From Eledone cirrhosa (lineage: Eukaryota), in the NCBI GenBank assembly GCA_964016885.1, contig OZ024763.1:27714001-27778000 (forward strand): a DNA stretch of 64,000 nucleotides, in the 5' to 3' direction. The notes under the pieces are model-generated. The model did no database searches and was not told where the DNA came from. It saw only the letters and a list, made by a program, of their open reading frames with translations. Position 1 is the first letter of the stretch; each line of letters begins with the position of its first letter. Made by a program: the position numbers and the translations under genes. Shown here one piece after another: positions 20,053 through 62,086 of the stretch.

Positions 20053-20266
20053 AGGAAAAAGTATGACTCCCGACGGCAGAGCTCAAGCCGTTTCGACGGC
20101 TATTTCTGGACTAAATTCACTGAATTTAGTCCAGAAATACCCGTCGAAACGGCTTGAGCTCTGCCGTCGAGGTCATACTTTTTCCTATTTCCAACTCTAC
20201 TACCCTAAGTATTGAGTACTCTGGTGAGTTATGGTCCATCTGGTTCCTTACCACATTTCCTTTGTT
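20053..20266 (+). mobile_element. Fold-back element family C (hammerhead 3' half plus tail)
   Basis: Palindrome 20053-20186 centred at ~20120 plus an 80-nt tail. Contains GAAACGGC-ttgagctct-GCCGTC. Flanked by (TA)n. Confidence 0.85.
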
Positions 20267-20292
20267 ATATATATATATATATATATATATAT

Positions 20293-20717
20293 ATGGAAAC
20301 TATATTTATAAAACCATATTTATTTTATTATACATATTTCAAGGACACCACGTTAAATTATGGTGTGCTTTCATCAGACAAAATACAATATAGATCAGTT
20401 TTATAAATAAATATTGACATACCCTTAACAAATGCAACCATTACTGTTGGAAGAGCTTCCAACAGTAATGGTTGCATTTTTTAAGGGTATGTCAATATTT
20501 ATTTATAAAACTGATCTATATTGTATTTTGTCTGATGAAAGCACACCATAATTTAACGTGGTGTCCTTGAAATATGTATAATAAAATAAATATGGTTTTA
20601 TAAATATAGTTTCCATTTGTTAATATCGTATGTTTACTCCAAATACTTGTTGAGTGCTTTATATCAGTTATAAAAATATTTGCTTGTTGTATCCCAACAA
20701 TTTAAATAGAACTTTTG
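20293..20717 (+). mobile_element. Fold-back hammerhead element family D
   Basis: Near-perfect 324-bp palindrome 20293-20616 plus a 100-nt tail, flanked by (TA)n. Confidence 0.85.
20524..20588 (+). ncRNA. Type I hammerhead ribozyme (family D); mirror copy on minus 20321-20385
   Basis: Stem I tattttgt/ataaaata (8 bp, one GU); CTGATGA; stem II aag.acacca/tggtgt.ctt; GAAA-TATGT-ATA; AUA triplet. Confidence 0.85.
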
Positions 20718-20875
20718 TATATATATATATATATATATATATATATATATATATATATATATATATATATATATATATATATATATACATATAAACAAGC
20801 AAATACATAAATAAATATATAGACAGACTGAATAAAAATGGCGTAGACATACAATACAACAGGAGTAAAAGATAG

Positions 20876-20920
20876 CACCACTGACGATGTTGCAGAGGTG
20901 CAACGAAAGATTTATGATAA
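20876..20920 (+). ncRNA. Degenerate hammerhead
   Basis: CTGACGA-t-gttgca(gagg)tgcaac-GAAAGAT-TTA. One extra base before stem II and weak stem I. Confidence 0.5.
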
Positions 20921-21134
20921 ACTATATATATGTGTTTGTGTCTATATTGTATCTGTATTATTTTTGACCGTCGGTCAGTCAATGGCAACATTGAGGACCG
21001 AGTAAGTTAGATTACCGATATAAAAGACACAGAAGCGAGAAGCGAAAACCAACCAAACAGTGAGTGCGTTCTGTTATTAATTCTGGCAATATTACACAAA
21101 TATGACCCTCCCCAAGTATAACAATATATATATA

Positions 21135-21550
21135 TATATTAATAAAAGGAATTCCAACTTTGTCTGATTTACTCGTTTTATTTGCAATCCTTTAAAATTA
21201 TAATGATATTATAATGAAATAGTATGGTAGAATATTAAGTGTTAAATGTTAATTAAACAAGTACTTTCATGCTTTCGCAATCTTCGGGTTCATATTCTGT
21301 GGTGACAGTCAAGTTTGCAATTTTCGACTGTGGAAAATTGCAAACTTGACTGTCACCACTGAATTGAACCTGAAGATTGCGAAAGCATGAAAGTACTTGT
21401 TCAATTAACATTTAACATTTAATATTCTACCATACTATTTCATTCTAATATCATTATAATTTTAAAGGATTGTAAATAAAACGAATAAATCAGACAAAGT
21501 TGGAATTCCTTTTATTAATATAATCTTCTATACACAATCATACACACCCG
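21135..21550 (+). mobile_element. Fold-back hammerhead element family E
   Basis: ~390-bp palindrome 21135-21522 centred at ~21330 with a short tail, in (TA)n. Confidence 0.85.
21362..21406 (+). ncRNA. Minimal type I hammerhead (family E)
   Basis: aattgaac-CTGAAGA-t tgc(gaaa)gca t-GAAAGTACTT-gttcaatt. 8-bp stem I, palindromic stem III (agtact). The mirror arm at 21251-21296 has CCGAAGA. Confidence 0.85.
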
Positions 21551-21717
21551 TATATATATATATATATATATATATATATATATATATATATATATATATA
21601 TATGTATATATATATATATAGATATATAAAATATTAAAAAAATAATGAATAAAACAATGAAACAGTTCCTTATATTAAACAAAAAAAGATTTATCTACAT
21701 ATATATATATATATATA

Positions 21718-21848
21718 GTTTTAATATAGATGAGATTCTACAGGACTAGAATTGTTTCATTCTTTAGAAATCATCAGGAATTGTATACTCTGCTATGTAT
21801 TGAGTACCTTACTTACTGTGGTTACCTCCGATTCAACCCGGAATAACT
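21718..21848. mobile_element. Family B element: inverted hammerhead arm (minus 21733-21782) joined to plus-strand tail
   Basis: Minus: attc-CTGATGA-tttc(taaa)gaat-GAAACA...TGTA-gaat. The tail matches 975-1025. Confidence 0.8.
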
Positions 21849-22954
21849 TATTTATATATATATATATATATATATATATATATATATATATATATATATA
21901 TATATATATATATATATATATTAGAAAAGGGAAGTAAGGATTCTATATAAAACAATGGATATAGAGAAAAGATGAAGTTGGAAATAACATGGGAGATATA
22001 TTTAAGGGTCTTTTTTTCTTTTTTGATTCGTCATGTGTGTGTGTTATCGATATATATGTATATGTAAATATATATATACATATATATTGTATATATATAC
22101 ATATATATGTATATGTAAATGTATATATGTAAATATATATATATACATATATATATTAGTATATATACATATTAGTATATATACATATATATATATGTAT
22201 ATTAGTATATATATATATATATATATATATATATATATAAATAACCCATGTGCAACCACACAGTATTCTTCTTTCTTCTCATGTTTTTTATATATATATA
22301 TGTATATATATATATATGTATGTGTGTGTATGTGTGTTTGTGCCTGTGTGCGTGTGTGTGTGTGCGTGTGTAACATACATCTGGTAAGTTAATGAAAAGA
22401 CGAAGCCATGATGATTATAATGACTATGACGATGATGTTGATGATGATGATGGTGGTGGTGGTGGTGGTGGTGGTGGTGGTCGTGGTGGTGGTGGTGGTG
22501 GTGGTGATGATGGTGATGGTGATGATGGTGATGACGACGGCAACGACGACGACGACGACGACGACGACGACGACGACGACGACGACGACGACGACGACGA
22601 CGACGATGTTGGCGATGGTGATGGTGCTGATGATGACAATAATGCTGCTGACGACGACAATGATGACGATGACGATGACGATGACGACGACGATGACAAC
22701 GACGATGACGATGACATTGCTGTTGCTGCTGCTGATGATAATAGTGACCACCAATATCATGGCATGACTGGAAGGCTGCCATAATGCTCGTTCCGAAATT
22801 TCCAGAAGCCACAATGCCAAATTGCATCAAAGACTATTAGGACGACCAATAAAACCGATCAGGTTACCATTTCTTTGCCAAATAACAATAATAATAATAA
22901 TAATAATAATAATAATAATAATACTACTACTACTACTAATAATAATAATAATGA

Positions 22955-59751: not shown

Positions 59752-59806
59752 ACTGCTATATATATTTCGGTGACAGCCATCTTTGGCTGTGACCTCTTCA
59801 GGCAGT
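59752..59806 (-). ncRNA. Type I hammerhead ribozyme (family G)
   Basis: Minus: actgc-CTGAAGA-ggt.acagcca(aaga)tggctgt.acc-GAAATATATATA-gcagt. Lies between inverted ends 59698-59727 and 59912-59940; tail to ~60035. Confidence 0.88.
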
Positions 59807-60214
59807 CCGAATTAGTGTGGTAGAGACGAGTACATATGTTGTTGAGGTGTATAACTTTGTCAATTCTCTGATATGCCCAGTACCTGGTTGGGTTGTTATT
59901 TCACTGAGGAAATTTGACTTATTTATTTTATTTTATTTTACATTACTCCGAAGTAACCAAACCAACCTGCGCACATCGTCGAGTGCTCAAATCTGCATAC
60001 TGAGGTGTTGGTATACAACCAACATATACTCAATATATATATATATATATATATATATATGCATACCGACACATACACATGCATATACACATGTACACAC
60101 ACACACACACACACACAGACATATATATATATAATTATATATATATTATATAAAAATTATATAAATTATATAAAAAATAAACAAAGAAGCCTTTAATTCA
60201 TTAAACATCTTTAT

Positions 60215-60272
60215 TTGCTGATAATGTTTCGTCCCATTAGTTCGTCTCATTAGTAAGGACTCATCAGAGCAA
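60215..60272 (-). ncRNA. Type I hammerhead ribozyme (family H)
   Basis: Minus: ttgct-CTGATGA-GTCC...GGAC-GAAAC-att-ATC-agcaa. One mismatch in stem III. Confidence 0.8.
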
Positions 60273-60440
60273 GTAAAAAGACAAGAAGTATTAACGTCAT
60301 TTCTCTAATACGACGAGCGTGTTTAACTCTAATGCACTCAAGTCTTTTTATCTTATATATATATATACATATATATATATATATATATATATATATATAT
60401 ATATATATATATATATATATATATATATATATATATTATA

Positions 60441-60542
60441 TACAGTGTCCTAAAAACTGTATACACACTTCAACATCATTCAAATAAATATTGCGTGTAC
60501 AGGTAATCAAAGTGTGTATACATTTTTAGGGGACACCCTGCA
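60441..60542. mobile_element. ~100-bp MITE, Tc1/mariner-like termini
   Basis: TIRs cagtgtcctaaaaactgtatacacactt / aagtgtgtatacatttttaggggacaccctg, inserted at TA. Confidence 0.7.
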
Positions 60543-60789
60543 TATCTATATATACATATACGTATATAGTTACAGGTCCTTACGTCGTATTTGACTAAAT
60601 AGAATTAGCCTGTAAGTTTGGATTGTAAAAATAACCTCTGAATGGAAAAATGGATGAGGGATACGAACCCACATCTTTGGTTTGCCGGACCAAAGAAATA
60701 TCTGTAGGCTCATCCAGAATTATAGACATTTGACATCAGCGCCCCCACCCATAAAAAAATATAAGTAAAACACCTGCTTTGACAGTTAG

Positions 60790-61250
60790 TATAATGCCAA
60801 GGATCGGACGCCATGCTTTCCACCTTAGAATTACGTCCCTTTATGATCTGAGTTCAAATCCCGCCGAGGTTAACTTGGCCTTTCATCGTTACGGGGGTAG
60901 ATAACATAAAGTACCAGTAATGCACTGGGGTAATTGCTGGCCTTGTGCCAAAAGTAGAAACAGTTATTTTATCTATAGAGGGCGGCGGATTGGCAGTATC
61001 GGTAAAGGGTCGGACGCCATGAATTGCAGCATAGAGTTACGGCTCTTTATGGTCTGAGTTCAAATCCGGCCAAGTTTAACTTTGCCTTTTATCCTTACGG
61101 ATAAAATAAAGTACCAGTCACGCACTGGGGTTGATTTAATCGACTTTCTCCTCCCCCAAAAAATTGCTGGTCTTGTCCCTTTACAGTCTGAGTTCAGATC
61201 CCGCCGAGGTTAACTTTCCATGTCATCGTTAAGGTGTCGATGAAACTAAG
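60790..61250 (+). mobile_element. Three head-to-tail SINE copies (main family)
   Basis: B box gagttca(a/g)atcc at ~60850, ~61056 and ~61190, each followed by the same body. Confidence 0.85.
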
Positions 61251-61927
61251 TCTGGTGCAGAAGGTCAGTGGAACCCAAGCAGCACTAATATGAAGAGGTG
61301 TTAAAAGGCTCGGATAAACTCCTCCGATTCAACGGCCTTCAACGGGCCCAACTATAGGGTTCCTCCAACATGAGTGAAAAAGCCCTGGATTGGGTTCATT
61401 TGGACATATATACTGCGCAGGCAAGTGCATGTGGTACTTGTATATGTCTGTGTGCTTGTGTGGGAGCATGCATTTACGTATATGTGCCTTAAGATATGTA
61501 TCATTGCATTTATCTGCATATATTTTGATGCCCAAGTGTATAATTGCATACAATGATTATTTTCTCCTTTTTCCGTTCATGCCCAGGGGTAGGTGCACGT
61601 AATACAGAGACGTGTTCTAACCCTTTTATCTCCCTTCCACCACAATTTCGCAGGGACACATCGTCACAGTATTTTTACCCCACGCACACAAACACTTTTT
61701 TTTAACAGCGCCATCTTGTTTCAATATAGTTTCGTTTCAGGAATTGCATTAACAGATTCGTCCCTGACACAAATCAGTTTCTTGCAAAGAAACACACACA
61801 CACACGTACGTACGCATATATATATATATATATATATATATATATATATATATATATATATATATATATATATATATATATATATATATATATATATATA
61901 TATATATATATATATATATATATATAT

Positions 61928-62086
61928 ACGAAGGAAATGTGGTAAGGAACCAGGTGGACCATAACGCACCAAAGTACTCAATACTTGAGGTAGTAGAGTG
62001 GGTAATAGGAACCAGTAAGACCCCGACAGCTGAGCTCAAGCCGTTTCGACGGCTTGAGCTCAGCTGTCGGGGTCTTACTGGTTTCT
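61928..62086 (-). mobile_element. Fold-back element family C
   Basis: Tail plus palindrome centred at ~62045, in (TA)n. Confidence 0.85.

What the first reader, a model, noticed from the sequence alone, without database searches (positions are those of the whole stretch)
20053..62086. Fixed outer end but variable fold-back point in family C insertions
In copies at 20053, 34644, 38722, 47464, 52116/52392 and 62086 the inverted arm always stops at the same site (...tt(c)cT|A, ~18 nt past the GUC) and joins (TA)n. The palindrome centre differs per copy (~20120, 34600, 38658, 52255, 62045), and the opposite arm usually runs ~80 nt further as a tail. Family B shows the same pattern (arm ends at ctatattaaa). 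Inference: there are two defined priming sites on the RNA, one at the tail end and one internal, with variable truncation where the two cDNAs meet (twin priming), or alternatively template fold-back.
Basis: partly seen in the sequence, partly recalled or inferred. Interest (0 to 1): 0.72.

Follow-up and report, generated by a model that had tools for sequence, protein, structure and literature searches.

The report
Penelope-like retrotransposon ends in TA repeats
These fold-back insertions are short end fragments of Penelope-like retrotransposons, whose two fixed copying start points and one-sided tail are already known, though the copies here hint at how the two ends get joined.

Summary
Family C has 7 insertions (13 arms) in (TA)n. 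All 7 inverted arms stop 18-20 nt past a hammerhead GUC (site X), and all 6 tailed arms stop 79 nt further on (site T). Arms differ at 14 of 337 positions and flanks are not inverted, so a read fold-back artefact is unlikely. One correction: 47464 is not a palindrome.

This is the known Penelope-like element (PLE) layout: a head-to-head, 5'-truncated inverted pLTR with a tail on one side. No PLE ORF is in the window, so membership is probable, not shown.

Small additions: tails are 79-103 nt rather than 30-40; 11 of 12 two-armed insertions pair X with T; centres sit on natural short hairpins (4 of 4, post hoc); two copies have non-overlapping arms that simple self-priming cannot make; six families share a covarying stem just after X. 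Best model: nicks prime at X and T, and the cDNAs join by snap-back or annealing at hairpins. Later palindrome deletion is not excluded. Interest is modest.

The parts
20053..20119 (-). Family C inverted arm ending at site X, joined to (TA)n 20022-20053
20121..20186 (+). Family C direct arm up to X; hammerhead GUC cleavage position after 20168; centre at 20120 on the loop-II hairpin
20187..20265 (+). 79-nt tail from X to T, then (TA)n; carries the shared RCTC...GAGY stem
34488..34600 (-). Family C tailed arm (tail 34488-34566); inner end at -15 from the GUC
34601..34644 (+). Family C X arm; inner end at -25, so it carries the hairpin loop; junction reads as blunt or as the 6-bp hairpin with 2 nt lost
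38515..38656 (-). Family C (second subfamily) tailed arm, tail 38515-38593
38660..38722 (+). Family C X arm; 3-nt spacer 38657-38659 on the loop-II hairpin
44363..44505 (-). Additional, more diverged family C copy: single tailed arm ending at T, no inverted arm
47464..47480 (-). 17-nt family C X arm ending 1-4 nt short of the ribozyme cleavage site
47478..47552 (+). Tail-only arm starting at +23; shares 3 nt (47478-47480) with the X arm; no arm overlap
52116..52250 (-). Longest family C arm: complete type I hammerhead (U3-A8 core, cleavage C at 52134), ends at X
52258..52391 (+). Partner arm, also ending at X (no tail); GAAA core mutated in this arm; 7-nt spacer 52251-52257
61929..62048 (-). 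Family C tailed arm (tail 61929-62006); carries the 4-nt hairpin loop 62045-62048
62049..62086 (+). Family C X arm; 6-nt microhomology at the junction (natural hairpin, -29 to -14)
848..1027 (.). Family B: inverted arm, direct arm to X at 968, about 60-nt tail running into (CA)n
21718..21852 (.). Family B: inverted X arm 21718-21781 joined to tail-only arm 21782-21852, no overlap
42196..42727 (+). Family B direct copy ending at X, no inverted arm, no tail; flanked by a duplication of target sequence

Best explanation
These are 5'-truncated pLTR fragments of endonuclease-bearing Penelope-like retrotransposons inserted in (TA)n, probably in a cephalopod genome. Shown in the sequence: two fixed outer ends (X at the base of the hammerhead's extended stem I, T 79 nt downstream), head-to-head arms, and read-through of the ribozyme site in 6 of 7 X arms. 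Taken from published PLE biochemistry: the protein nicks both strands of AT-rich DNA and starts reverse transcription at two internal RNA sites bounding the tail, on uncleaved RNA. Inferred: one TA 3' end primes at X and the other at T. Both cDNAs run towards the RNA 5' end and join 3'-to-3' at a short natural inverted repeat, either by direct annealing or by snap-back of one cDNA followed by a switch onto the other. When the T-primed cDNA stops at the X-primed hybrid, the product is an inverted arm plus a bare tail. So twin priming sets the outer ends and local hairpins set the centre.
For: Fixed ends in 13 of 13 arms. X and T each used alone in simple copies. 11 of 12 clear two-armed insertions across six families have the tail on one side only (p 0.003 against a 50% ceiling for independent choice; H43100 and L62307 left out as uncertain, 1-746 left out because one end is outside the window). 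47464 and 21718 have non-overlapping arms. 3 of 5 non-palindromic tailed arms (47464, 21782, 3910) stop within about 8 nt of X; 44363 and 53343 do not. 34644 and 62086 use the same 6-bp hairpin with the loop on opposite arms. Arms within a copy differ by 6% (5 pairs) against 16% between copies (40 pairs), so both arms share a template. The constrained hammerhead fold is -33.0 against an MFE of -34.1 kcal/mol, with stem I reaching X. The U3-A8 core is known from Schistosoma PLE hammerheads (PMC4209133). Same architecture and TA bias described for PLEs (PMC8557442; PMC3846280). Two RT starts equal the tail ends (PMC11167929).
Against: No PLE RT or GIY-YIG ORF was seen among the window's ORFs (both outputs partly cut; only two ORFs were scanned against Pfam). 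The one open frame through the tail found no homologue (weak evidence) and shows no synonymous excess. Rfam finds no hammerhead, the 5' core is seen in only one insertion, and cleavage is untested. Most centres are near-symmetric, which independent twin priming does not predict. Non-overlapping copies and flipped loops can also arise after insertion. Family C alone (5 X|T of 6) is too few to show coordination. Tail length differs from the published 30-40 bp. In vitro the two strands showed no difference in start-site use, which neither shows nor excludes coordination.
Confidence: 0.6

Rival explanations
1. One priming event at T, fold-back of the cDNA at a hairpin, then an endonuclease cut at X that opens the hairpin and joins it to the other TA end (endonuclease-mediated resolution, as suggested for the PLE tail).
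For: Explains near-symmetric centres on hairpins, one-sided tails, and 47464 (its junction is a natural 3-bp inverted repeat). An ATT, the motif the PAc endonuclease prefers, lies right at X in family C. PMC8557442 attributes the tail to such resolution.
Against: X is used as a plain end in copies with no inverted arm (42727; 47704 has at most 5 nt) and on both sides of 52116/52391. Both tail boundaries were RT starts in vitro.
Confidence: 0.2
2. Insertions form as longer palindromes, and the variable centres, flipped loops and non-overlapping copies come from later palindrome instability (centre deletion, slippage across an extruded hairpin, template switching). These processes are recalled from general knowledge, not from a call.
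For: 47464 and 21718 have one break inside an arm and one just outside the other arm's base, as hairpin-stimulated deletions would. 47464 has a 3-nt direct repeat at the break. PMC3846280 notes microhomology-mediated deletions in Penelope copies.
Against: Does not explain the fixed outer ends. The 47464 tail looks no more diverged than those of intact palindromes (by eye). Long palindromes of 135-190 bp per arm persist with 2-7 nt spacers.
Confidence: 0.12
3. Pure self-priming (fold-back) with no second target-primed cDNA, as proposed for rotifer Penelopes.
For: Centres on hairpins. A 5-nt snap-back-like end at 47755-47760. The X|X copy 52116 could arise this way. Published proposal: PMC3846280.
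Against: A fold-back from a T-primed cDNA should return to T and one from an X-primed cDNA has no template for the tail, yet 11 of 12 are X|T. Non-overlapping arms cannot be copied from each other.
Confidence: 0.05
4. SINE-like passengers of the restriction-endonuclease-type non-LTR element at 55031-58557, inverted by L1-style twin priming, or fold-back DNA transposons (MITEs) in TA.
For: A non-LTR RT ORF is in the window. TA insertion and inverted repeats recall MITEs.
Against: No similarity between family C and that element; its 3' end runs into (ATAC)n. MITEs have fixed interiors and symmetric termini, not variable centres, one-sided tails and hammerheads (recalled).
Confidence: 0.02
5. Assembly or read fold-back artefact.
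For: Palindromes next to long (TA)n tracts are a known risk; raw reads were not available.
Against: Arms differ at 14 of 337 positions, flanks are not inverted, and ends coincide across independent loci and relative to a ribozyme site.
Confidence: 0.01

Closest known systems
Poseidon element of Anolis carolinensis (PAc), PMC11167929
   Same: Hammerhead upstream of two fixed ends that bound a tail; AT-rich targets; template mostly uncleaved by the ribozyme.
   Different: PAc starts lie farther from the cleavage site at X (outer start 111-118 nt into the ORF, cleavage at +26) with a 30-40 nt tail. Family C has X at +18 and a 79-nt tail. The paper's main text does not explain the inverted junction.
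Endonuclease-bearing PLEs in general (Penelope/Poseidon, Neptune, Nematis, Hydra, Naiad), PMC8557442
   Same: Inverted 5'-truncated copy at the 5' end, tail usually on one end only, (TA)n targeting (Naiad, Hydra), hammerhead in the pLTR (all but Naiad/Chlamys).
   Different: No ORF or partial tandem here, so the clade cannot be assigned. Tails are 79-103 nt in five families and 33 nt in one. A full hammerhead argues against Naiad, although Octopus Naiads also insert in (TA)n.
Adineta vaga Penelopes, PMC3846280
   Same: Head-to-head inverted pLTRs with palindromes at the junction and an optional tail.
   Different: Interpreted there as self-priming on an antisense template; the non-overlapping copies here fit that poorly.
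L1 twin priming (recalled, not read here)
   Same: Two target nicks prime two cDNAs, giving an inversion joined by microhomology; 47464 and 21718 look like this.
   Different: In L1 the second priming site is variable and the arms do not overlap; here it is fixed and the arms usually form a palindrome.

Membership tests
Endonuclease-bearing Penelope-like elements | ORF with telomerase-related RT and GIY-YIG endonuclease | tested here: inconclusive
   Copies reach only 116 nt upstream of the cleavage site; no such ORF seen in the window. The rest of the genome was not available.
Endonuclease-bearing Penelope-like elements | Hammerhead motif in the pLTR | tested here: met
   Complete type I fold with U3-A8 core in 52116-52250 (variant known in PLEs). 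No Rfam hit. Activity untested.
Endonuclease-bearing Penelope-like elements | Inverted 5'-truncated copy joined head-to-head | tested here: met
   6 of 7 family C insertions.
Endonuclease-bearing Penelope-like elements | Tail extension at one end | tested here: met
   5 of 6 two-armed family C insertions; 11 of 12 over six families.
Endonuclease-bearing Penelope-like elements | Tail length 30-40 bp (typical, as published) | tested here: not met
   78-79 nt in family C; 91-103 nt in D, F, I; 33 nt only in G. Treated as a typical value, not a defining one.
Endonuclease-bearing Penelope-like elements | Partial tandem copies forming direct pLTRs | tested here: inconclusive
   None in the window; copies are too truncated to show it.
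Endonuclease-bearing Penelope-like elements | Microsatellite / AT-rich insertion bias | tested here: met
   All 7 family C insertions abut (TA)n on at least one side.
Naiad clade | Lack of a canonical hammerhead | tested here: not met
   Family C has a complete hammerhead fold; Naiads lack one.
Tandem hammerhead retrozymes / satellites (definition recalled) | Head-to-tail arrays of ribozyme-bearing units | tested here: not met
   No head-to-tail family C arrays.
MITE / fold-back DNA transposon (definition recalled) | Terminal inverted repeats at both ends around a fixed interior | tested here: not met
   One-sided tail and variable centre.

The most novel reading that the evidence does not exclude
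PLE integration is a coordinated two-active-site reaction on one RNA. One RT starts at X, set by the base of the hammerhead's stem I and a conserved, covarying RCTC...GAGY stem 5-9 nt downstream; the other starts at T. The head-to-head junction forms where the two cDNAs pair at a local hairpin. This would replace the self-priming and endonuclease-resolution accounts of the PLE inverted repeat and give the ribozyme fold a positioning role apart from cleavage.
Probability: 0.3. Interest if true: 0.62.

Novelty: new member of a known kind. Interest (0 to 1): 0.33.

Why it matters
How PLEs make their inverted repeats is described as unresolved (PMC8557442). Genomes packed with very short, ORF-less copies give many independent junctions per family, so a genome-wide count of X|T, X|X, T|T and non-overlapping copies could separate twin priming, self-priming and endonuclease resolution, and the PAc in vitro system can test the result. 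The shared stem after X is a candidate start-site signal. The architecture itself is known, so the value is as a test bed, not a new system.

Tried and rejected
Rfam at gathering threshold found 0 families in the window. The E-value scan of 52100-52420 gave 15 weak matches, none a hammerhead; the top ones are hairpin models fitting the palindrome. ARAGORN found 0 genes. The generic inverted-repeat finder was swamped by TA tracts, as was my TA-edge scan; the insertion list was therefore picked by eye. A strict hammerhead scan found only the family B copy at 42706, because family C has a variant core. Unconstrained folds of six fragments were not significant (z from -1.67 to 0.38). The idea that the tail is coding was dropped: 7 synonymous against 16 non-synonymous differences, like other frames, and no homologue among 8 candidates. 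The non-LTR element at 55031-58557 was rejected as partner. None of four family motifs occurred in the one supplementary file held for PMC8557442; its sequence and ribozyme files were not visible. I make no hammerhead claim for families H, I, J or L. Which arm carries the spacer could not be told for 20053, 38722 and 52116 for lack of a matching reference. No other eukaryotic genome, allele or raw read was available, so empty sites and genome-wide counts stayed unchecked.
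Full report
Setting. The window is 33% G+C and packed with simple repeats. Its only long complex ORFs (55031-58557, minus strand) encode a non-LTR reverse transcriptase (Pfam RVT_1 and zf-RVT) whose best named relative is from the octopod Argonauta hians (50% identity). A cephalopod host is therefore likely; this is inference from one hit.

Observation. BLAST with four family C queries on the unmasked window finds 7 insertions and 13 arms. Numbering from the C of the hammerhead GUC, 7 of 7 inverted arms end at +18 to +20 (site X) and 6 of 6 tailed arms end within 1 nt of a second site T, 79 nt further on. 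The chance that all 13 ends fall in two sites is at most 4e-8 even when only the element's 10 TAT/ATA sites are allowed. Five insertions are palindromes with centres at 20120, 34601-34610, 38657-38659, 52251-52257 and 62045-62048. Paired arms differ at 14 of 337 positions, and flanks are not inverted in 5 of 6 two-armed copies (the sixth is low-complexity in both orientations), so a read fold-back artefact is unlikely. Family B shows X at +19 to +21 from a GUA in 3 of 3 copies, but its two tail ends differ.

What it is. The longest arm (52116-52250) folds as a complete type I hammerhead within 1.1 kcal/mol of the minimum-energy structure, and its extended stem I ends at X. The core has U3-A8 in place of C3-G8 in both arms, a covariation reported in Schistosoma PLE ribozymes (PMC4209133, passages). 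Rfam does not detect it and cleavage is untested. PLE insertions are described as 5'-truncated, with an adjacent inverted 5'-truncated copy and a 30-40 bp tail often at one end only, and several clades target (TA)n (PMC8557442: passages, section 11 and a search of one supplementary file). Rotifer Penelopes show palindromes at the inverted junction, read there as self-priming (PMC3846280: passages and Discussion). A purified Anolis PLE protein cleaves and extends both strands of AT-rich DNA, starts at two internal RNA sites that bound the tail, and uses mainly uncleaved RNA (PMC11167929: parts 1-2 of 4, the main text; supplementary figures not seen). Family C matches this layout, and 6 of 7 X arms read through the GUC. 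No PLE ORF was found, so I call it a probable PLE pLTR fragment family of unassigned clade.

Other families. The same layout occurs at 848 and 21718 (B), 42821 (D, tail 91 nt), 20295 (F, 103), 21140 (G, 33) and 59700 (I, 93). Hammerhead-like motifs, read by eye, put X at +24 (D), +49 (F) and about +80 (G) from the presumed cleavage site, so the 18-nt spacing is not universal. Of 12 clear two-armed insertions, 11 have a tail on one side and 1 on neither (p 0.003 against independent choice). I left out 43100 and 62307 as uncertain and 1-746 because one end lies outside the window. One-sidedness is itself already noted in PMC8557442.

Mechanism. X and T are each used alone in simple copies (X: 42727, 47704; T: 44363, 3910, 53343), which fits both being priming sites. 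Simple fold-back fits poorly: it should return to the site it started from, and it cannot give the non-overlapping arms at 47464 and 21718. Three of 5 non-palindromic tailed arms stop within about 8 nt of X, as expected if a cDNA primed at T meets a primer already at X. Independent truncation also fits poorly, because most centres are symmetric to within 10 nt. All 4 family C centres with a reference lie on natural hairpins of 5 bp or more (14% of positions, p about 4e-4, post hoc; p 0.013 at 4 bp; 2 of 4 at 6 bp; the reference is a single copy). 34644 and 62086 use the same 6-bp hairpin with the loop on opposite arms, the former with 2 nt missing. The simplest joint reading is two target-primed cDNAs joined at a local hairpin by annealing or snap-back and switch (confidence 0.6). 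Fold-back followed by an endonuclease cut at X (0.2) and later palindrome deletion or inversion (0.12) predict much of the same and cannot be excluded from one window. The 47464 X arm ends 1-4 nt short of the cleavage site, as a run-off from cleaved RNA would; this is one case and only suggestive.

A side result. The sequence after X in 6 of 9 families examined (C, B, D, F, H, I; absent in G, J, K) carries RCTC...GAGY, starting 5-9 nt after X (21 nt in F), with A-U in four and G-C in two. One B copy and one D copy lack it. The stricter form RCTC...RTYGAGY occurs in 271 of 38970 background windows. The motif was found by eye first, the predicted folds contain the stem in only some of these, and the families may share it by descent.

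Novelty. The architecture and the two start sites are published. A search for 'Penelope' with 'twin priming' returned 3 papers, none on PLE insertion structure by title and abstract start (listing only; not opened). Searches showed no paper proposing this join or these families. The library lacks most subscription papers, including older Penelope reviews, which may already contain such a model. PMC3088659 was seen only as a listing. L1 twin priming, palindrome instability, MITE and retrozyme definitions are recalled. Verdict: a real feature, a new member of a known kind, with modest mechanistic clues. Interest 0.33.

Noticed in passing
window 20187, 21782, 42958, 20615, 43187, 59940 (tail starts): Shared RCTC...GAGY stem shortly after site X in six families, with A-U/G-C covariation; candidate start-site signal.
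   Followed up: partly
window 42137-42790: Family B direct copy ending at X is flanked on both sides by (TA)n plus the same 16 nt, a probable long target-site duplication from staggered nicks.
   Followed up: partly
window 47704-47760: Family D X arm alone, ending in a 5-nt stretch complementary to its own end: a snap-back or the remnant of a deleted second arm.
   Followed up: partly
window 20295-20717, 21140-21550, 42821-43048, 59700-60032, 43100-43594, 62307-62389, 1-746: Further TA-inserted inverted-arm elements of other families, with tails of 33-103 nt (408 and about 10 nt in two uncertain cases); 1-746 has a spacer of about 360 nt.
   Followed up: partly
window 55031-58557 (-): Near-complete non-LTR retrotransposon ORF in two frames, with RT, zinc finger and a restriction-like endonuclease motif (R4/Dong-like by recall); best named hit Argonauta hians; 3' end in (ATAC)n. 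A 3' fragment of it lies at 51418-51690 and a related-looking fragment at 41732-42084 next to (TTA)n.
   Followed up: partly
window 4623-4745 and 44934-45058: Two copies of another TA-adjacent family sharing one end, with CTGATGA and GAAA motifs on the minus strand in an order I could not fit to a type I hammerhead.
   Followed up: no
window 8932-12635: Tandem array of a 140-nt unit, about 26 copies, about 90% alike.
   Followed up: no
window 17149-17850, 27064-27285, 39197-39292, 50914-51087, 60799-61251, 63313-63879: Abundant short interspersed repeat, in places tandem; resembles an octopus SINE family by recall only.
   Followed up: no
window 6283-6894 and 54308-54918: 612-nt dispersed repeat at 97.5% identity, with diverged relatives at 38106-38421 and 51120-51274.
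   Followed up: no
window 47572-47625 and 48735-48784: Two roughly 50-nt copies of one sequence, each alone between TA tracts; possibly end fragments of another family.
   Followed up: no
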